From positions 1 through 32,210 of the IMG/VR virus record IMGVR_UViG_3300033415_000010: a stretch of DNA of 32,210 bases. One strand, 5' to 3'. Within the stretch, counting starts at the first letter, position 1, and each line of letters begins with the position of its first letter. This stretch comes from a virus. Its lineage: Duplodnaviria > Caudoviricetes. The translations under genes were made by a program, and so were the position numbers. The notes beneath the pieces are model-generated. The model was not told where the DNA came from and searched no databases. It saw only the letters and a list, made by a program, of their open reading frames with translations. Below are positions 8,719 to 23,737 of the stretch, in pieces.

Positions 8719-10155
8719 TTAAATCTGTTCAGTGGTTTCGACGGTGACGGTTGCTGTGGCGGGCTCCGGCATGACAAGCTCAGGTGTCTCGGTCGTGACA
8801 CTCTCGATGCGTGCGTTGTGGGGCTGAGTAACAACCGGAGCAGGTTCAAGCGAGGAAAGCTTCTTCCTAAGAGGACGCAGCCAACCAAGCTCGACGCAGC
8901 GAGCGAAGAGGTAGGGATACGCCTTGCGATTCGAGCGCACCCAAGGGATGAAATCCTGGGTGAAGTCGAGCCCGGTGAGCGCACGACAGGGACCGCAGAA
9001 CTCCACCACTGCGGCAGAGAACTCAATGGCTGCCAGGATACGCTCCGAGCGGGTGTTGCCCTTAAAAATACGGAACTCAATCGTAGCCGCGTTGGTCAAG
9101 TTGACCGCCTCGTAGCGGTCACCTTCGTACTTGGCGTCTCGGAACATCTTCGAGGATTTTAGCTCGGAGTAGTGGCCGCTCTTTCGACGCGCAATTCGCT
9201 CGACGTAGCCGTTGTTCCCCGGGCTATTGATAAAGACCAGTATCCTACCGATCTGGAGGTGTGTCAGCGGAGCACGACTGACATGGACGTGAATGCCGCA
9301 CTTGTCATTGTCGCCACTAAGACCCGAGCGGACTTGGTTCCACCGCACGGAGTCCCAAGTCTTGCGGTGTTCGTCAAGCGACATGGGCGCACTCACGATC
9401 TCAAAACCGTTTCCGATACTGCCGTCATGGGCACAGAGAACGCGGTCCCTTTCGCTGTTCAGCGCATCGAGGACACTCTGCGCCTTGACGGAACAATCCC
9501 CGTCGTACTGGACTTCCACTTCGACACCGTACCAGAGAGGGCCTTCACCAATCTTCTTCGGGATCTCGTAGCTGTGGTAGTTGTGGATCGGACCGGAGTC
9601 TTCGTCTACCTCGTGGCAATTTTCGCAGCAGTCTTGACCCCCGCTCCAGTCATCCCCATCAACCCAAGTGTCGCAACACTCGCAGTAGTGGAAGTTATCC
9701 CGAGCATACTGATTCAAGTACAATCCGTTTAAGCCCCGGACCTCGACGAAACTGTTGTCACTGGAATAATACTGCTGATAGCCTTCGCAGAAGGTGTAGT
9801 CCCGATCCCGGACAGGCGTGCAGACCACGCGTTCCTCGGCGCTTCGCCTACGATACGTTGAGTAGGTGCGATAGACCGGGTGCAGGTCGTCTTGATAGTA
9901 GGTGTCCCCGGTCTCATCGCAGGTGCCATAGCTGTCGCTGTAGCAGCCCCCGCAGATCAGGCGACCGTCATGCGTCGTGTGCATCTCGTCGCGCTTACTA
10001 TAAGTGTGGCAGTCATCACACTCGGCGTACTCCTCGTGGAACTCGTCGTCCTCGGACTCGTGGACCCAGCCCACGTTGTCGTACTCTTTCCAGTTATCAG
10101 ACGCGGGAAACTCCGTGCCGCGGTAGTCGCTGGTTCTCAGGATATTTTCAGACAT
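8719..10155 (-). CDS. putative amidoligase (COOH-NH2 ligase, glutamine synthetase-like fold) with N-terminal Cys-rich repeats
   Basis: YGVEVE, HDGS..GFEIVSAP, CGIHVHV, RYEAVN, TIEFRIFKG; several CxxC pairs at the N-terminus. Confidence 0.88.
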   Translation of the reverse strand: MSENILRTSDYRGTEFPASDNWKEYDNVGWVHESEDDEFHEEYAECDDCHTYSKRDEMHTTHDGRLICGGCYSDSYGTCDETGDTYYQDDLHPVYRTYSTYRRRSAEERVVCTPVRDRDYTFCEGYQQYYSSDNSFVEVRGLNGLYLNQYARDNFHYCECCDTWVDGDDWSGGQDCCENCHEVDEDSGPIHNYHSYEIPKKIGEGPLWYGVEVEVQYDGDCSVKAQSVLDALNSERDRVLCAHDGSIGNGFEIVSAPMSLDEHRKTWDSVRWNQVRSGLSGDNDKCGIHVHVSRAPLTHLQIGRILVFINSPGNNGYVERIARRKSGHYSELKSSKMFRDAKYEGDRYEAVNLTNAATIEFRIFKGNTRSERILAAIEFSAAVVEFCGPCRALTGLDFTQDFIPWVRSNRKAYPYLFARCVELGWLRPLRKKLSSLEPAPVVTQPHNARIESVTTETPELVMPEPATATVTVETTEQI

Positions 10156-11678: not shown

Positions 11679-12257
11679 TCACACCATTCCTGCAAGCCGG
11701 AAGCTATAAAAGCCCCGGTGCGCCGGATCTCTGTCAGGGACACCCAAGATGACGTGATCTGACAGCTCAATCCCGAGGATGCGCGCAGCTTCCCTGAGTT
11801 GCCGGGTGATAGCCAAGTCTGAAGAACTAGGCTCCGGGTCGCCACTTGGGTGGTTGTGCGCTATGGCAATGCAGGCCGCACCATCCCGGATGGCTTGGCG
11901 GAAGACCTCGCGGGGATGCGCCAAACTCTGAGTTGCCGTGCCGGACGTGACTTCAGTGACACGAATCACCCTGCGCCGGGTGTTCATGCTGATTGTCCAA
12001 AACTTCTCGATTTCAAGGCCGTAGGCCTTGGGCAGGAGAAGTTTGTAGATGTCTTCCGGCGCTGCCAAGACAGCAGGGGGCGGGTTTGCCGAGGTAGCAG
12101 CCTCTTTCAAGAGAGACTGCGCGGCAACCAAGGCCGCTTTTCGGCGGGGGGAAAGACGGACTGGGCAATCTTGTACATCGATCTTGGATAACCCGCCTTC
12201 CTGGAGTATCCAGTCACAGGCCGGACCTGGACCGATGAGTGCTTCGATGGCGTTCAT
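11679..12257 (-). CDS. radC: RadC-like JAB/MPN domain protein
   Basis: E-x-F, HPREVFRQAI, AHNHPSGDPEPSSSD, LGIELSDHVI. Confidence 0.93.
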   Translation of the reverse strand: MNAIEALIGPGPACDWILQEGGLSKIDVQDCPVRLSPRRKAALVAAQSLLKEAATSANPPPAVLAAPEDIYKLLLPKAYGLEIEKFWTISMNTRRRVIRVTEVTSGTATQSLAHPREVFRQAIRDGAACIAIAHNHPSGDPEPSSSDLAITRQLREAARILGIELSDHVILGVPDRDPAHRGFYSFRLAGMV

Positions 12258-12343
12258 AAAGAGCCCCTCCGGAGCTCGATTAGGGTGATGGCTGCGAGAA
12301 GCACGAGCAGGCACCCGCAAAAGATTAGGAAAAACATGGCATG

Positions 12344-12372
12344 AAAAAAAACCCACCTCTTTTGAAGGCGGG
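12344..12372 (-). terminator. intrinsic terminator
   Basis: Minus strand CCCGCCT-TCAAAAG-AGGTGGG followed by T8. Confidence 0.7.
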
Positions 12373-12485: not shown

Positions 12486-13237
12486 CGAAACCCTGAACGG
12501 AATTGCTCAGGGTTTCGTGTTGAAGTCAAAAGCCAGTGGGTGATTATCCCCACTGGCTTTGAGGTTGAACGTCCATGCTAACTTTTCTCCGCATGGACTG
12601 CGTGTTTTACTTCGCACCTTAAAAGATCGCTGCGAAGGCATGTCGGTAAAGCCGGACATGCTGGCTTCTGACACGGGAAAAACTCAGGTCGCGAGACCTG
12701 CTTTCCTGGTGTGGAGAGTGTTTTAATCCGCTTCTCTCAACGGTTTACTAAAGAAGGCTTTTGCTTTTGTGGCCAGCCAAACAAACCACGTAACGAGCCC
12801 TTGAGATCAGGTCCGCCTGGCTTCTAGGTGCTAGGTCCACAAGCTCGCGCAAAGGCGTTTTGCTTGTGGCTTCATGGGATGCGCAGAACGCGTCCCGATG
12901 GGTAGAGTTAAAACTCGTCCCCATGCTTTGCTTTTCAGTTCAAAGCCCTTGGAAGCCAATTAAAAGAATCGGCAAAGCAGTAGCTTAACCTCACTACAAG
13001 GTGCCCTTTGCTTTTCTGGCCGAATCTGGCCCCGCTTTATCCCATACTCGGTCTCCATTTGATCCTACCTCTTTTCCCCTGCGCCTTGCGCGGGGTTTCA
13101 AAAGTCGCAGACTATTGCGGGTCTGAGGCTAAGGAGCTTGGGGCGGCTCACCGTGAGCCCCCTTAAAGGGCTTTCTGGCAATGCTTCCGCCTGTACTCCG
13201 TCGAGGGGCGAGAGCCCCGCGCAATGGCGCGGGGCTC
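12486..13237 (-). ncRNA. candidate large structured RNA / 5' leader
   Basis: No ORF of 60 aa or more in any frame; more than 10 closely spaced hairpins; repeated AAAAGCAAA on the minus strand; TTGACG at 13238-13243; strand uncertain. Confidence 0.45.
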
Positions 13238-13303
13238 CGTCAAAATTTACGAGACTTTTCTGTGCGGGATTGCGTGCAATGGCACGCGAGAAAAAGAACT
13301 TTT

Positions 13304-13381
13304 GCAGCTGATAAGGGCTACTTGCTGCCCTCGTAGTGGGAAAACCACTACGAGGGCAGAATAGTAGCCCTTATCAGCTGC
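13304..13381. repeat. 78-bp near-perfect palindrome
   Basis: GCAGCTGATAAGGGCTACT-TG-CTGCCCTCGTAGTGG-GAAAA-CCACTACGAGGGCAG-AAT-AGTAGCCCTTATCAGCTGC. Confidence 0.92.
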
Positions 13382-14404: not shown

Positions 14405-16054
14405 CTATTCTTTATCGTCAGTTTTTACAAAACTCGACCCCCGGGGCTTGATCCCGAAGTATTGCCAAGGTCTTGTAATAGTGCCGTCTTCTCGGTAAAC
14501 CCGCCGCTTGGCTTTGACCAAACCCCGCTTTGCCAAGTAAAGCGTGAAATCCGTCGATCTCTTCGGCACGACGCTCATTCCCTTGCACCAGTCGATGTAA
14601 TCGCGGCGGAGTCCATCTGGCGTGGCCCTGTACTGGCTCCGGTCGGCTGTCTTGGCAGTCAGGTTGGCCTCGTCGAGGTCGTACCGCTCCTCCAACGACT
14701 CCCACCAGTCGAGCAGGTGATCTTGGCTTTCCCGGTATTCTTCCGTAATACGAATCAAAGCCTCTGGAATCGCAAGGCCCTTGCGACCGCCACCCCTTGC
14801 TTGCCAGTCCAGGCACCCCTTCAGGCACCAGTTGAGGATAGCCGACCGAGCCGTCGGGTCGGTAAGCAAAGTACGTTTGACCAAGTGGTCCCTCTTCTTC
14901 TCTGGCACCGCCTTGAAGTGAACCTTGACCATTCGACGCCATACGCCGGGGTCCTCGGATTCCGTTCTAGGATCGAAGTTCGAGACGAGCCAGATTTTCC
15001 AAGTCGGGTTTAGCACATCCATCTTCGTCTGCTGGAGGGCACGGGCGGTAACTTTCTCACCCCCCGATAGCTGCTTGATCCTACCTTCGTTGAGCCGAGC
15101 CCTGGAATCGCCTTCGGTGGCGAACACGAACCGGGCACCCAGTAGGTTGTAAAGGTCGGGGCTGGGGGCGGCACCGTCACGGGTGTTCTTGCCCAGGGCG
15201 CAGAACATCTCAAACGGGGGCTTGTAGCTGTAATCCCCCAGCATATCGGCAAAGGCTTCGGTCAGCGTGGTCTTTCCGCTGCCCCCGTCGCCCGAGATCA
15301 GGAAGAACGACTCCGCCTCAACGTCCCCAGTCATACTCATCCCAAAGCACCTGGCGAGGAAATCGCAAACCCCAGGCACTTGGATCTCCAAATCCTCCAA
15401 GAAGCGGTCGAGAACCTCAGACTTGGCGCTAGGATCGAAGCGTACCCCCGCCATTTTGCTTTGGAAGAGAGATTTCTCGTGAGGCAGCAGAAGACCCGTC
15501 TTCAGGTCCAAAACGCCGTTTTTGACGTTTAACAGCCAAGGATTAGAATCGAGGGCACCGGGGTCGAGGTCGATCTGGGGGTTGCACTTCGCTAGGCTGA
15601 CGGCAGACGAGATGTGGCCGGACCCCTCATGAGACTCGGCTTTTGAGATCATTGTAGCCCCGCCCTTCTCGCCACCGTAGCGCAGGATTGTCTGTTGGAG
15701 CCAGTCACGGGCGCATTTCTTGGCGAGGGTCTTGGCAATGTTGCCTTCCACGTCCTTCGAGTTGCGGTTGAAGGACCACCGGGCACCATCCCAATAAGCC
15801 CAGCCTAGTGCAGGAACATGGCGATAGTCGCCCTTCATCGCCTCGATCAGTCGGTACGAGGCGTCGAGGTCGGTGCTGATCCCCACGGAATGTCCCTCGC
15901 GGGAGAAGTCGAGCACCGGGGCGACTGGAGCCTTGGGAATGGGGACTATCGGAATGTTTAGGGTGAAAGCCAGGGGTTGGTTTCCGTAGGCGGCGGGCTT
16001 GCTGTTTCCCATTTCTTCCGGGAAACCGTCGTTTGAGAGTCTTGATTTGGTCAT
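14405..16054 (-). CDS. P4/D5-family primase-associated SF3 helicase
   Basis: D5_N features (WAYWDGARW, LLNVKNGVLDLKTG), Walker A GDGGSGKT, GARFVFATE, IKQLSGGE...AR, VWRR; start MTKS overlaps the primase stop (ATGA). Confidence 0.92.
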   Translation of the reverse strand: MTKSRLSNDGFPEEMGNSKPAAYGNQPLAFTLNIPIVPIPKAPVAPVLDFSREGHSVGISTDLDASYRLIEAMKGDYRHVPALGWAYWDGARWSFNRNSKDVEGNIAKTLAKKCARDWLQQTILRYGGEKGGATMISKAESHEGSGHISSAVSLAKCNPQIDLDPGALDSNPWLLNVKNGVLDLKTGLLLPHEKSLFQSKMAGVRFDPSAKSEVLDRFLEDLEIQVPGVCDFLARCFGMSMTGDVEAESFFLISGDGGSGKTTLTEAFADMLGDYSYKPPFEMFCALGKNTRDGAAPSPDLYNLLGARFVFATEGDSRARLNEGRIKQLSGGEKVTARALQQTKMDVLNPTWKIWLVSNFDPRTESEDPGVWRRMVKVHFKAVPEKKRDHLVKRTLLTDPTARSAILNWCLKGCLDWQARGGGRKGLAIPEALIRITEEYRESQDHLLDWWESLEERYDLDEANLTAKTADRSQYRATPDGLRRDYIDWCKGMSVVPKRSTDFTLYLAKRGLVKAKRRVYREDGTITRPWQYFGIKPRGSSFVKTDDKE

Positions 16055-17001
16055 GATGAGTGTTGGTTGAAGAGAGGGTTGAAGAAAAGGACTTCCTGAT
16101 GCTTGCCATTGTCGCGCAAGCCACCGGGCATTCGGGCAAATTGTTCGGGGAACCACATCCGGGGGTCGGCACCGAGCCTGACGGCTGCGCAGAACCAGTC
16201 GCGCAGGGCGCGGGGGTCCGGCTGCGCACGGGCACCGACGTAAACCCAGCCGTGGACGCTCTTGCCGCCCGAGGATACGGCCATCGCCAGGAGTCCACGG
16301 GTGTTTTTGTTAAGTTCCCACAGGAGGCTGGCCTGTTTGTCGGGGGAAAGCTTCGGATTATCGAACTCCACGATCAGAAAACGACGGGCTCCGACGGCAT
16401 CCCGGCAGTGGTGCGAGGTGCTGCCGCGTTTTGTGACGCCCGTTCGCTTGCGCATGGGGTTGGGCACGACGAACTGGCAGTTTTCCAGGGATTCGTCGCT
16501 CCAGTCTTGCAGCGGGAGTGTGCGGAAGGTGGACGCCTCGCGTCCGCAGCAGACAAGTTCCTCCGCCTTGAAGAAATGACGCAGGGGGAGCCTCGGACTT
16601 TTCGCGCTTCGCGCCCGCAGGTCGTCCAGGCAGCGCACTTCGCTGGCTTTCACCACCCGGGAGCTGAGGCGCGGGGCGAAGGGGGCCTCGTCCTCGGAGA
16701 TTCCCCTGAAATTCGCGGGCCAGCCCGTGACGGGATTGAAGATTCCAAGGCTTTCTTCGAGGGTGAAGCTGCGTTTGTTCTCCAGGTCGCACTCGAAGGC
16801 TCCTGCGACGAAGCCCTCGATCTCCCGCTCGGGGATCTCGCGGCGGAGAGTCCAGGTTTCGCAGGCTGCGCGCAGGAGCTGCACGCAGTCGCGCTCCGGG
16901 ACGCCCTGACGCCGCAGCGACAGGGCCTGCCTGAAGAGATGCGTGTGGAGTCCGACGGATTCCTCCGGGGGATACAGCATCACGGTGACGGAATCGGCCA
17001 C
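16051..17001 (-). CDS. AEP-type (RepB-like) DNA primase
   Basis: FLIVEFD, SGGKSVHGW and RMPG motifs; adjacent to the D5 helicase. Confidence 0.75.
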   Translation of the reverse strand: MADSVTVMLYPPEESVGLHTHLFRQALSLRRQGVPERDCVQLLRAACETWTLRREIPEREIEGFVAGAFECDLENKRSFTLEESLGIFNPVTGWPANFRGISEDEAPFAPRLSSRVVKASEVRCLDDLRARSAKSPRLPLRHFFKAEELVCCGREASTFRTLPLQDWSDESLENCQFVVPNPMRKRTGVTKRGSTSHHCRDAVGARRFLIVEFDNPKLSPDKQASLLWELNKNTRGLLAMAVSSGGKSVHGWVYVGARAQPDPRALRDWFCAAVRLGADPRMWFPEQFARMPGGLRDNGKHQEVLFFNPLFNQHSS

Positions 17002-20664: not shown

Positions 20665-21525
20665 ATGGGTAAGAGTTCCTTCACTGACATTGACGCCAAG
20701 AACGTGACCGAGGCTGACGCCGAAGTCACCCAGCAGACGGAGACGACCGCCATTGCTCCGCAGAATACTGCCGTGGCAAATGCGGAAGACTTCAACTTCC
20801 AGAACGACGGTTTTGCGGACGAGATTGATGCACGCAATATCAACATCCCGTTCATCAAACTTGTCCACGGCGTGGGCGACTTGAGCCGCGAGGGGTTCGC
20901 CCCAGGCTCTCTTGTATTCGACAAGAATCTAGTTCTTCTGGAGCCCGCCAAACCCGGCAAGAGTCAGGAGCCCCTGACGATCCACCCGCTCAACGGCATG
21001 TTCGGCGGGCTCGACTACATCGAGTACCCGACGAACGCGCAGTACGAGGCTTACCAGGCGGCGGGTTTGCGGGGAGGTGGCCCCTTCAAGAATGAAGTCG
21101 AGGCGAAGGCAGCGGGCTACGTCACCAGCAAGGAGGCCAAGGAGATTAAGAGGCTCAATCCTGCGGCTAACCCGCTCATTTACGGACCCCGCCTAAGCCT
21201 GTGCGTCCTTGTCGAGGGAAACAAGGACTCCAACTTCCCCTACGAGTTCGGCGGAAAGACCTATAACCGGGCCGCTTTGGTCCTTACCAAGGGCAGCTAT
21301 TATTCCGCAGGCAAGGACCTCTACACGGGGGTCGTAACCGCCCGTCAGTTGAACAAGGCGAACCCTGGACAGTTCCCGCTATTCTGGACCTCGTGGCATT
21401 TGACCACGAAGTTCTGGAAGGCACCCGGCGCGGTAAACGGTGCGTTCAATGTCAACGCCAAGCAGGGCACAAAGACCAGCCCCGAGTTCATCGCCTGGGT
21501 CAAAGCCACCTTCAATCTCGTCTGA
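20665..21525 (+). CDS. probable ssDNA-binding/recombination protein
   Basis: IPFIKLVHGVGDL...PG N-terminal motif; lies between the nuclease and PolA genes. Confidence 0.55.
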   Translation: MGKSSFTDIDAKNVTEADAEVTQQTETTAIAPQNTAVANAEDFNFQNDGFADEIDARNINIPFIKLVHGVGDLSREGFAPGSLVFDKNLVLLEPAKPGKSQEPLTIHPLNGMFGGLDYIEYPTNAQYEAYQAAGLRGGGPFKNEVEAKAAGYVTSKEAKEIKRLNPAANPLIYGPRLSLCVLVEGNKDSNFPYEFGGKTYNRAALVLTKGSYYSAGKDLYTGVVTARQLNKANPGQFPLFWTSWHLTTKFWKAPGAVNGAFNVNAKQGTKTSPEFIAWVKATFNLV

Positions 21526-21580
21526 ACGCGAGAGGGGCATACCCCTGATCGGCGCGGCAGGGTAAGTCCGCGCCTTATCT

Positions 21581-21697
21581 GACTGGGTGGCGGAACAAGC
21601 GGGTTGGGGCGTCCTTTTAGGTGCACCAGCTTCGCCCGGTAGACGCGCCCGGGACAACCGTGGTCCACTGTTGGTTCAAGTCCAACCCCAGTCACCA
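21581..21697 (+). tRNA. aberrant tRNA-like RNA (D-loop insertion, undetermined anticodon)
   Basis: Acceptor GACTGGG/CCCAGTC plus ACCA; D-arm halves TGGCGGAA and GGTAGACGC; T-arm GTTGG-TTCAAGT-CCAAC. Confidence 0.75.
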
Positions 21698-21709: not shown

Positions 21710-23737
21710 ATGACTACCACAGAACCGTCTCCGATTTCTCGGACGCTTCAAACACGCTACGCGACTTTCGATACCGAAACCCGGTACTCCGAGGAATACT
21801 CCGTTGCCGATCTGGGCAACGAGGCTTACGTCCGGGACCCGCGTTTCGAGTGCTATCTGGTTATCGTCCATGCGGACGACGGTTTCAAATTCATTGGGCA
21901 CCCAAAGGATGCGCCCTGGGATCAGATCAGCCAATATGCGTTTCTCTCCGCGAACGCTGGGTTCGACCAGGCGGTCCTCCGCAGAATGATCGAGTTGGGG
22001 CAAGCCCCGGCTTTTGCCTATCCGAAGGAGTGGCATTGCACTTCAAACATGGGGGTTTACTTCGGGCTTCCTCGGGCCTTGGCGAAGGCGCTCAAGGCCG
22101 AGTTCGGAATCGAGCACGACAAGAGCGTCCGAAACAAGGACATGCTCGGTATCGGACACGCGGAACTGGAGGCGAATCCGGCCCTAAAGGAGAAGGTTTA
22201 CAAGTACGCCGCCCTCGACGGAGAGGGGCCTCTCCTCCTGTGGCAGAAGTATGGCCACCTCTGGCCCGAGATCGAAAAGGAGATTTCCAACGAGACCTAC
22301 CGCATGTGTCGGGAGGGGGTCTATGTTGACAAGGCGAAGATCGAGTATTGTATTCAGATTCTTGAGACCGCTTGCGCGGTAAACGAAGACCGAATCCCGT
22401 GGTCGAAGGACTACCCGATTCTTTCTCCGAAGGCCCTTCGTACCGAGTGCGCCAAGCACGGGATCAACCCCCCGGCGTCTTTGGCGAAGACCAGCGAGGA
22501 GTGCGCTCTTTGGGAGGCGAAATACGGGGACTTAATCCCATTTGTGAAGTGGATGCGCAACTGGCGCAGGGCGAACGCTCTCTTGGAGAAGTTCAGGACG
22601 ATGCACGTCCGCATCGGTGAGGACGGTCGCATGGCCTACTCACTGCTCTACTATGGGGGCAGTACCGGAAGGTTCTCTGGTGGAGGGGGATACAACCCAC
22701 AAAATATCCCCAAGGAACCAATGTACTTTGACGCGGAGTGGAATATCACCAGCGAGGCGAACACTGCGAGAGTCATCGACATGCGTTCGACTCTGGTGGC
22801 ACCCCCGGGGAAACTCCTCGCGGCTGTCGATTACGCTCAGATTGAAGCTCGCGTGACTCCGTGGGTCGCCGGGGACCGGGCTACGCTCGACCGTATTCGC
22901 CCGCCATCTCTTCGCTCGATGCGTTTCAAGGAGATGCTCAAAGCGGAGACGAGCGTTTATCAGGTCCACGCAGAACTTGCCATGGGTTGGAAGGGGATGA
23001 GCGAGGACCCCTCGACCTGGAACCTTAAGAAGGCCGACAAGGTTCTGTATGCCCTGGCCAAGGCGCGTGTTCTCGGGCTCGGCTTTGGCTGCGGGTGGAA
23101 CAAGTTCATTGCCCTCGCCAAGCTCATGCTCGACAAGGAGACCTTCAAGAAGGTTTTCGGGGCACCCGTGCCTCCCGACCACGCGACCGCCTTCGTCGAT
23201 TACCTCATCCAGTATGACAAGCCGAAGACCTATCTGAAGCAATGGCCCCTGCTGACGGAGGAAGAGAAGACGATCTGGGTCAACTCGTGGCTTCAGGTCA
23301 CCGACTATCGGACCAAGAACCCGAAGATCACCGCCCTCTGGCGCAGGATGGGCGACGAACTCGCTCGAAGCTGCGGAGGCGACTACACGGTCACGCTCCC
23401 TTCAGGGCGCGATCTGTTCTACTACGGGGTCCACAAGCGGGCGGACTCCTACTACGTCTACACGACCAAGGGGGACCCGGCTTCACGAGCCTACGGGCCT
23501 CTCCTCGTCGAGAATCTCGTTCAAGCCACCGCACGCGACATCCTCTGTGAGGCGATCCTCCGTCTTCGCAAGGCGGGCTTCCGGGTCGTGATGCACGTTC
23601 ATGACGAAATCATCGTCGAGATCGACCGCCCCGAGGACGCGGATCGCATCATGGAGATTATGTGCGAGAGCCCGCGCTGGGCACGCACGCTCCCCATCGG
23701 AGCCGAGGCAGATGTCACCACTTTCTATCGTAAGTAA
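21710..23737 (+). CDS. family A DNA polymerase with 3'-5' exonuclease
   Basis: DTET exonuclease motif, TGRFSG, NPQNIP, motif A DYAQIEAR, motif B KARVLGLGFG, ENLVQATARD, motif C HVHDE. Confidence 0.93.
   Translation: MTTTEPSPISRTLQTRYATFDTETRYSEEYSVADLGNEAYVRDPRFECYLVIVHADDGFKFIGHPKDAPWDQISQYAFLSANAGFDQAVLRRMIELGQAPAFAYPKEWHCTSNMGVYFGLPRALAKALKAEFGIEHDKSVRNKDMLGIGHAELEANPALKEKVYKYAALDGEGPLLLWQKYGHLWPEIEKEISNETYRMCREGVYVDKAKIEYCIQILETACAVNEDRIPWSKDYPILSPKALRTECAKHGINPPASLAKTSEECALWEAKYGDLIPFVKWMRNWRRANALLEKFRTMHVRIGEDGRMAYSLLYYGGSTGRFSGGGGYNPQNIPKEPMYFDAEWNITSEANTARVIDMRSTLVAPPGKLLAAVDYAQIEARVTPWVAGDRATLDRIRPPSLRSMRFKEMLKAETSVYQVHAELAMGWKGMSEDPSTWNLKKADKVLYALAKARVLGLGFGCGWNKFIALAKLMLDKETFKKVFGAPVPPDHATAFVDYLIQYDKPKTYLKQWPLLTEEEKTIWVNSWLQVTDYRTKNPKITALWRRMGDELARSCGGDYTVTLPSGRDLFYYGVHKRADSYYVYTTKGDPASRAYGPLLVENLVQATARDILCEAILRLRKAGFRVVMHVHDEIIVEIDRPEDADRIMEIMCESPRWARTLPIGAEADVTTFYRK

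What the first reader, a model, noticed from the sequence alone, without database searches (positions are those of the whole stretch)
21581..21697. 117-nt tRNA-like RNA with a ~40-nt hairpin in the D-loop and a broken anticodon arm
Seen: perfect 7-bp acceptor stem, encoded CCA, intact T-arm and Leu-like D-arm halves (TGGCGGAA ... GGTAGACGC). Bases 21596-21637 are inserted in the D-loop and can fold as a G-U-rich hairpin capped by CTTTTAG, which resembles a Lys(UUU) anticodon loop. The 23 nt between the D and T arms have canonical class I length but lack U33 and a regular 5-bp/7-nt anticodon stem-loop. It sits alone between the SSB-like gene and PolA. Inference: not a decoding tRNA but a tRNA mimic (decoy for anticodon nucleases such as PrrC, RNase P/Z processing signal for the polA mRNA, or aminoacyl carrier). 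Intact acceptor and T arms argue against simple decay.
Basis: partly seen in the sequence, partly recalled or inferred. Interest (0 to 1): 0.8.

Follow-up and report, generated by a model that had tools for sequence, protein, structure and literature searches.

The report
Phage tRNA body carrying swappable hairpins
This phage carries a 117-base gene shaped like a leucine tRNA with an extra hairpin in its D-loop and no regular anticodon arm, one member of a widespread phage family whose hairpins vary as exchangeable modules; it likely makes a non-decoding RNA that likely serves as a decoy or ligand for host RNA-binding or defence proteins.

Summary
21581-21697 holds a perfect acceptor stem, T arm and ACCA end, tRNA-Leu D-arm halves split by a 42-nt hairpin, and an irregular anticodon region. 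ARAGORN and Rfam miss it; 0 of 200 shuffles give such a frame.

It is not a one-off. Motif scans gave 64 distinct elements with the same frame, 63 of them in viral contigs. The D-loop insert (22-53 nt) and the anticodon region (20-82 nt) are unrelated, block-replaced modules. U48, which was not searched for, is present in 64 of 64, so the tRNA core is likely under selection.

Best reading: a non-decoding, tRNA-scaffolded RNA displaying exchangeable hairpins, likely a decoy or ligand for host proteins. Expression and function are untested. Closest known: phage T5 RNA1, an annotated stable RNA of unknown function with a normal D-loop. I found no paper on the family. This scan noted the family before on other DNA.

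The parts
21581..21697 (+). tRNA-shaped RNA gene (tRNA-Leu-type frame with two variable slots), 117 nt
   Evidence: a family model built without this copy scores it 54.1 bits, E 2.5e-12
21581..21587 (+). acceptor stem, 5' strand
   Evidence: 7 Watson-Crick pairs with 21687-21693, pair probabilities 0.90-1.0
21588..21595 (+). U8-A15: 5' half of a Leu-type D arm
   Evidence: mostly fixed by the search patterns in the family
21596..21637 (+). slot 1: 42-nt hairpin between A15 and G18; CTTTTAG at 21614-21620 is its tip
   Evidence: 14 pairs with probability above 0.5; z -1.8; best identity to any other slot-1 module 56%
21638..21646 (+). G18-C25: 3' half of the D arm with G18G19 and A20a
21647..21669 (+). 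slot 2: 23 nt in place of the anticodon and variable arms; irregular stem, A33, ends in U48
   Evidence: 3 of 5 pairs in the canonical register; family range 20-82 nt
21670..21686 (+). T arm, 5 pairs and a 7-nt loop
21687..21697 (+). acceptor 3' strand, discriminator A73 and encoded CCA
   Evidence: CCA is encoded in only 3 of 64 family members
21530..21574 (+). two predicted hairpins in the 55-nt spacer before the RNA; role unknown
   Evidence: fold; an 8-nt loop motif of the second recurs in slots of L021, L118 and L373
20665..21525 (+). upstream gene, 286 aa, Pam3_Gp34-like hypothetical protein (SSB identity not verified)
21710..23737 (+). family A DNA polymerase; its start codon lies 12 nt after the CCA end

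Best explanation
This is a member of a widespread phage family of tRNA-shaped RNA genes that keep the acceptor, T-arm and D-arm frame of tRNA-Leu and carry two exchangeable modules; it is likely cut out as a stable non-decoding RNA that likely displays its hairpins as a decoy or ligand for host RNA-binding or defence proteins. Shown: the frame, the family, the conserved core, the structure of one slot-1 module and the block-wise replacement of modules. Inferred: transcription with the replication operon, release by RNase P and 3' trimming (recalled tRNA-processing knowledge), L-shaped folding with slot 1 projecting from positions 16-17, and selection on the modules by host proteins. The target is unknown.
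For: Family: 64 distinct elements with 28 different acceptor sequences. U48, partner of A15 and not in any pattern, is present in 64 of 64 and in 49 of 49 slot-2 types against 26% T background. Slot 1 is structured: median z -2.1 over 57 sequences, 4 above zero. In one slot-1 type, 4 of 7 pairs change on both sides and 96.8% of cells pair, against 41-53% when slid (9 of that type's 12 members aligned). Modules are replaced as blocks: 33 slot-1 and 49 slot-2 types; 8 of 12 multi-member slot-1 types occur with two or more slot-2 types, and 7 of 13 the other way round. L459's modules recur in a non-Leu frame in L472, and its slot 2 recurs in a frame with a short D-loop, so the modules are not tied to one frame. 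The anticodon is not conserved: a 4-5 pair stem with a 7-nt loop and U33 appears in 11 of 64 under a lenient test. Nearly phage-only: 1 of 120 bacterial-genome loci is a true member. T5 encodes a Leu-frame RNA with a replaced anticodon region, annotated as a stable RNA. tRNA-directed defences exist, including one that binds tRNA and cuts the 3' ACCA tail (PMC12851939, passages).
Against: Nothing here shows expression, processing, a binding partner or an effect on defence. An aptamer inserted between C16 and G18 of E. coli tRNA-Tyr was not stably expressed (PMC5397188, passage), so D-loop inserts can destabilise a tRNA. No common neighbouring protein was found. 29 of 63 members have an ATG reading frame within 35 nt downstream, against 13 of 71 ordinary tRNAs in the same loci, which also fits a role in cis. 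The window's two modules have no relative in the set, so their own conservation is untested. Acceptor and T-stem pairing were selection filters, so their covariation is not independent evidence.
Confidence: 0.5

Rival explanations
1. The RNA is a LeuRS substrate or ligand: a leucine carrier or a sink for LeuRS or EF-Tu that works outside decoding.
For: The E. coli leucine identity set is A73, A15-U48, G18G19, A20a and the D/T-loop contacts, with anticodon and variable arms dispensable (PMC9976931, passages; PMC2377443, abstract). The window's copy has all of these plus encoded CCA.
Against: A73 is present in 49 of 64 and G73, an antideterminant for LeuRS, in 9; A73 is the majority base in 16 of 28 acceptor types. 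The same modules occur in a non-Leu frame. G18G19 and A20a were fixed by the search patterns. [quoted passage not shown]
Confidence: 0.15
2. The frame acts in cis as a processing or stabilising element for the mRNA behind it, here polA.
For: The polA start lies 12 nt after CCA, behind an AT-rich leader like those of neighbouring genes. 29 of 63 members precede an ATG frame within 35 nt, against 13 of 71 ordinary tRNAs (Fisher p 0.0007, not corrected for relatedness).
Against: 34 of 63 have no such frame, and the downstream proteins are unrelated. 26 of 64 loci hold ordinary tRNAs nearby. 0 of 59 PolA relatives have the frame upstream. It does not explain two hypervariable structured slots.
Confidence: 0.13
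3. The modules are selfish or neutral hitch-hikers that accumulate in spare tRNA frames at the two positions that tolerate insertions.
For: Modules move between frames, and one slot-1 sequence matches the flank plus first bases of another member at 28 of 31 positions.
Against: The frame stays intact with U48 invariant although decoding is lost, and module stems show compensatory changes. No shared mobility gene was seen among the downstream proteins, though 2 of 23 are HNH or endonuclease VII proteins.
Confidence: 0.1
4. It is a decayed tRNA-Leu(CAA) pseudogene with a chance insertion.
For: Slot 2 has class I length and CAA at 34-36. The copy has no close relative to compare.
Against: Acceptor, T arm, CCA and U48 are perfect, and 63 other elements have the same design with the insert at the same position.
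Confidence: 0.06
5. Slot 1 is an intron and the spliced product is a decoding tRNA.
For: With slot 1 removed in silico, ARAGORN calls a tRNA in 6 of 16 junction variants at its default threshold.
Against: Those calls are tRNA-Cys(ACA) in a slipped register of an irregular stem. Family slot 2 ranges from 20 to 82 nt, mostly without an anticodon arm. Inserts of 22-53 nt are too short for self-splicing introns, and no shared junction motif is seen in the alignment (intron knowledge recalled).
Confidence: 0.03
6. It is specifically a decoy for Lys-anticodon nucleases such as PrrC, through the CUUUUAG tip of slot 1.
For: The tip matches 6 of 7 letters of a tRNA-Lys(UUU) loop (loop consensus recalled). 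A module unique to one phage could still be a tailored decoy.
Against: 1 of 57 inserts has such an apex; C32-G38 is predicted paired (0.93), giving a 3-5 nt loop on a bulged stem.
Confidence: 0.03

Closest known systems
Phage T5 RNA1 (AY543070 30501-30644, annotated 'tRNA-like stable RNA with unknown functions'); also RNA2
   Same: Leu-type D arm and T arm with the anticodon region replaced by other hairpins; lies in a phage tRNA cluster. The family model scores RNA1 at 26.7 bits. RNA2 has an internal T-loop hairpin like slot 2 of L323.
   Different: RNA1 has a normal D-loop with no slot 1; 26.7 bits is no higher than ordinary T4 and T5 tRNAs (up to 36.5).
Bacterial and phage tRNA-Leu (Rfam RF00005)
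   Same: Acceptor, D-arm halves, A15-U48, G18G19, A20a, T arm, A73-CCA.
   Different: 42-nt D-loop insert, irregular anticodon arm, no long variable arm; not called by ARAGORN or Rfam.
Phage T4 species 1 and 2 RNAs (rnaC, rnaD)
   Same: Stable RNAs of unknown function beside a phage tRNA cluster (PMC9697503 passage); rnaC ends in a T arm.
   Different: No Leu-type D-arm halves and no D-loop slot; the model scores part of rnaC at 17.6 bits and does not list rnaD.
Allo-tRNAs and irregular tRNA polycistrons (PMC5389517, passages)
   Same: Odd tRNA-like genes, some in phages, some proposed as regulatory RNAs.
   Different: Defined by 8/4 or 9/3 acceptor/T stems; this element is 7/5, and 'D-loop' does not occur in that paper's main text.
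Engineered tRNA-scaffold RNAs (Spinach-tRNA, PMC5397188, passages; anticodon-arm scaffolds recalled)
   Same: A tRNA body used to carry a folded cargo.
   Different: Synthetic; the D-loop fusion at C16/G18 was not stably expressed in E. coli, whereas this natural family uses that position.

Membership tests
Decoding tRNA (RF00005) | 7-bp acceptor, 5-bp T stem, NCCA | tested here: met
Decoding tRNA (RF00005) | 5-bp anticodon stem with 7-nt loop and U33 | tested here: not met
   3 of 5 pairs, A33
Decoding tRNA (RF00005) | D-loop of ordinary size; detected by ARAGORN or Rfam | tested here: not met
   42-nt insert
Two-slot tRNA-Leu-frame phage RNAs (delimited here; noted earlier by this scan) | Leu D-arm halves split by a hairpin between A15 and G18, variable region ending in U48, T arm and acceptor | tested here: met
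   model of 43 other members hits 21581-21697 at 54.1 bits. The model also scores ordinary tRNAs, so it is not a sharp discriminator.
T5 RNA1-type tRNA-like stable RNAs | Leu-type frame with non-canonical anticodon region | tested here: met
T5 RNA1-type tRNA-like stable RNAs | Normal D-loop | tested here: not met
T5 RNA1-type tRNA-like stable RNAs | Accumulates as a stable RNA in infected cells | not testable with these tools
   only DNA runs were available
LeuRS substrate | A73, U8-A14, A15-U48, G18G19, A20a, U54-A58, U55, C56 | tested here: met
   sequence against the identity set in PMC9976931; presence of the bases only
LeuRS substrate | Leucylated in vitro or in vivo | not testable with these tools
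   needs an assay
Intron-containing tRNA | Removal of the insert yields a canonical tRNA | tested here: not met
   only slipped-register Cys(ACA) calls, 6 of 16 variants; anticodon arm stays irregular
Anticodon stem-loop mimic for Lys anticodon nucleases | Conserved open 7-nt Y-U-UUU-A-A loop on a regular stem | tested here: not met
   1 of 57; predicted paired
Allo-tRNA | 8/4 or 9/3 acceptor/T-stem arrangement | tested here: not met
   7/5; definition from PMC5389517

The most novel reading that the evidence does not exclude
Phages use the tRNA body as a natural display scaffold with two cassette slots, exchanged by recombination through the conserved frame, to make a diversified arsenal of small RNA decoys or aptamers against host defence proteins: an RNA counterpart of phage sponge proteins that would also explain the old T5 'stable RNAs of unknown function'.
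Probability: 0.3. Interest if true: 0.87.

Novelty: new variant of a known kind. Interest (0 to 1): 0.62.

Why it matters
Phage 'tRNA-like stable RNAs' such as T5 RNA1 are annotated but have no known job. Standard tRNA tools miss this design, yet short exact-motif scans gave 64 distinct elements. A fixed tRNA core with two exchangeable modules makes the question testable by swapping frame and cargo separately. If the modules are decoys, this is a new RNA-based counter-defence. A natural D-loop cargo position would also be useful for RNA engineering, since an engineered insert at that site was not stably expressed.

Tried and rejected
Expression: no RNA holder listed; this blank is no evidence either way. 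Laying three DNA runs showed no other letters or joints.

Close relatives: single-protein scans found only a near-identical contig; the upstream protein had no homologue. Alignment scans gave 158 other PolA loci; 59 had an N-terminal match with at least 350 nt upstream and none held a tRNA frame there; the model over 61 of these loci gave one 20.7-bit hit.

Cultured phages: blastn with the window's element and five family members found only short T-arm or acceptor matches. Five such hits were opened and none is a two-slot element.

Bacterial genomes: 18 of 120 loci passed the first filter; 17 were tandem 5' duplications of ordinary tRNA-Leu and were dropped (16 by rule, L413 by hand).

Antisense targets: the slots match nothing longer than 11 nt elsewhere in the window. 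Promoter and terminator scans show nothing near the element. Two overlapping minus-strand frames have no Pfam hit. T4 rnaC and rnaD as the same family: rejected. Rfam on 18 family loci: only weak generic tRNA scores on two members, 30.4 and 28.6 bits.

Literature: ten searches gave no description of the family. The library lacks most subscription papers and the old T5 papers. The alignment supplements of PMC10690425 (10,006 candidate viral RNAs) could not be read; the files searched had no hit, so parts of the family may be among its candidates.

Full report
Verdict. The feature is real and belongs to a large, apparently undescribed family of phage tRNA-shaped RNA genes with two exchangeable modules. 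It is very likely not a decoding tRNA. Its function is not shown; a decoy or ligand role is my best inference.

1. Observation. The window is a phage contig: helicase, DUF2800 exonuclease, family A polymerase, RuvC-like resolvase and terminase. At 21581-21697 the sequence shows a 7-bp acceptor stem, the D-arm halves of a tRNA-Leu separated by 42 nt (21596-21637), 23 nt to the T arm, a 5-bp T stem with a 7-nt loop, and ACCA. The free fold equals the constrained cloverleaf with the insert as a hairpin, though the D and T stems are weak in the ensemble (0.16 and 0.32). In the canonical register the anticodon stem forms 3 of 5 pairs and position 33 is A. ARAGORN and Rfam report nothing there. A generic frame detector finds this one frame in the window and none in 200 shuffles. 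Contigs of three DNA runs carry the same letters; two may be the window's source.

2. The family. In 22 of these a T arm and matching acceptor followed within 90 nt. Further scans, filtered for at least 4 of 5 T-stem and 6 of 7 acceptor pairs, passed 33 of 120, 20 of 39, 2 of 120, 38 of 48 and 18 of 48 loci. That gave 65 distinct sequences. I dropped L413, a duplication of an ordinary tRNA, leaving 64 including the window's own copy. In bacterial genomes 17 of the 18 first-pass hits were such duplications; the one true member (L373) is nearly identical to viral L118. The counts are lower bounds, biased to these exact motifs and rich in related phages.

3. What is conserved. The last base before the T stem, U48, was in no pattern. 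It is T in 64 of 64 elements and 49 of 49 slot-2 types, against 26% T inside the slot. With A15 this is the pair that locks the tRNA core (PMC9976931, passages). Acceptor pairing holds over 28 different sequences, but pairing was a filter, so this is not independent. CCA is encoded in only 3 of 64, A73 in 49 and C74 in 54. A covariance model from 43 members, without the window's copy, finds 21581-21697 at 54.1 bits. It also scores ordinary tRNAs (up to 36.5 bits in T4 and T5).

4. What varies. Slot 1 is 22-53 nt and folds better than shuffles (median z -2.1 over 57 sequences). In one slot-1 type, 9 of 12 members aligned show compensatory changes at 4 of 7 pairs. Slot 2 is 20-82 nt; only 11 of 64 pass a lenient anticodon-arm test with U33. 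At 70% identity there are 33 slot-1 and 49 slot-2 types. The commonest slot-1 type occurs with 10 slot-2 types, and 7 of 13 multi-member slot-2 types occur with different slot-1 types. The modules of L459 recur in a frame with a different, non-Leu D arm in L472, and its slot 2 in a frame with a short D-loop. This is block replacement, not gradual decay. The window's modules have no relative in the set (best 56% and 58%).

5. The Lys-like tip is unique to this copy (1 of 57) and is predicted to pair shut. The link to polA is not conserved: none of 59 PolA relatives with upstream DNA has a tRNA frame there, but they are distant. In favour of some cis role, 29 of 63 members precede an ATG frame within 35 nt, against 13 of 71 ordinary tRNAs in the same loci; the downstream proteins are unrelated (23 of the 29 were scanned), and 26 of 64 loci hold ordinary tRNAs. 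The carrier idea has real support in this copy. E. coli leucine identity rests on A73, A15-U48, G18G19 and A20a, and not on the anticodon or variable arm, and all are present. Across the family A73 is the majority in only 16 of 28 acceptor types, so leucylation cannot be the general job.

6. Mechanism. Shown: frame, family, core conservation, module structure and replacement. Inferred: the RNA is transcribed with the replication genes and released by RNase P and 3' trimming (recalled knowledge of tRNA processing). It then folds into the upper half of a tRNA, with slot 1 projecting from positions 16-17. A fixed processing and stability scaffold with two fast-changing structured cargos is what an arms race with host proteins would produce, so I favour a decoy or ligand role (0.5). 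tRNA-directed defences are a known pressure: Cas12a3 binds tRNA and cuts the ACCA tail (PMC12851939, passages), and phage tRNAs counter PARIS, retrons and Septu (search listings and abstract starts only). Against: there are no expression data (only DNA runs were listed), no partner protein, and an aptamer placed between C16 and G18 of E. coli tRNA-Tyr was not stably expressed (PMC5397188, passage).

7. Comparison with known systems. T5 RNA1, annotated as a tRNA-like stable RNA of unknown function, has a Leu-type frame with a replaced anticodon region but a normal D-loop. It works as the nearest precedent; the D-loop slot is the difference. T4 rnaC and rnaD do not share the frame; PMC9697503 calls them RNAs of unknown function (passage). 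Allo-tRNAs differ in stem lengths (PMC5389517, passages). Passages of a review of non-canonical tRNAs showed no D-loop inserts of this kind, and the word phage does not occur in it (PMC7609411). PMC10424219 (passages) added nothing specific. No cultured phage with a two-slot element was found by blastn.

8. Novelty. Ten literature searches and Rfam gave no description of the family. The alignment supplements of PMC10690425 could not be read (passages; supplements) and may hold parts of it. Earlier notes of this scan describe the same family on other DNA; they gave me the T5 lead and the word 'slot', and are not independent support. I rate it a new variant of a known kind (phage tRNA-like stable RNAs), interest 0.62. 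This copy adds one of the shortest slot-2 regions, an encoded CCA and a position in the replication operon of a phage contig with no other tRNA gene.

Noticed in passing
window 21530-21574: Two predicted hairpins fill the spacer before the RNA; an 8-nt motif in the loop of the second also occurs in slot 1 of L021 and slot 2 of L118 and L373.
   Followed up: partly
L466 1363-1393 (- strand) and L308 slot 1: The D-loop insert of L308 matches the upstream flank plus first acceptor bases of L466 at 28 of 31 positions, hinting that slot modules can arise from flanking hairpins.
   Followed up: no
L472 about 1550-1670; L459 about 1730-1820; L111 1-652; L003 733-1070: Several phage loci carry two or three tRNA-shaped frames close together, with and without slot 1, and with different D-arm types sharing the same modules.
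   Followed up: partly
L008, L504, L323 slot 2; T5 RNA2 (L124 3460-3584): Long slot-2 modules contain a second T-loop hairpin, as T5 RNA2 does.
   Followed up: no
L262 1366-1555 and L267 2143-2332: A 190-nt tRNA-Leu-type frame with a long internal insert lies near a distant PolA match in two metagenome contigs.
   Followed up: no
L097 67-181 and L118 170-284: A second elongated tRNA-like gene (Rfam tRNA 38-39 bits, not called by ARAGORN) sits directly before the two-slot element.
   Followed up: no
L072 1415-1489: A 75-nt tRNA-Leu(UAG) without a long variable arm lies directly before a family member in a phage tRNA cluster.
   Followed up: no
window, leaders of genes at 20665, 21710, 23757 and 10155: Start codons are preceded by A/C/T-rich leaders with a shared AATAC motif and no Shine-Dalgarno sequence.
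   Followed up: no
window 13209-13307 (- strand): Weak Rfam Leu_leader match (28.6 bits, below the gathering score of 50), probably a terminator-like hairpin in an ORF-poor region.
   Followed up: no
window 14405-17001, 11679-12356, 8719-10155 (- strand): Primase-like similarity split over two overlapping ORFs, a RadC/JAB gene and an amidoligase-2 gene.
   Followed up: no
L572 306-514 and 628-830 (Rhodococcus phage Trina): An irregular tRNA-like region, annotated tRNA-OTHER, lies just before a Ro RNA-binding protein gene.
   Followed up: no
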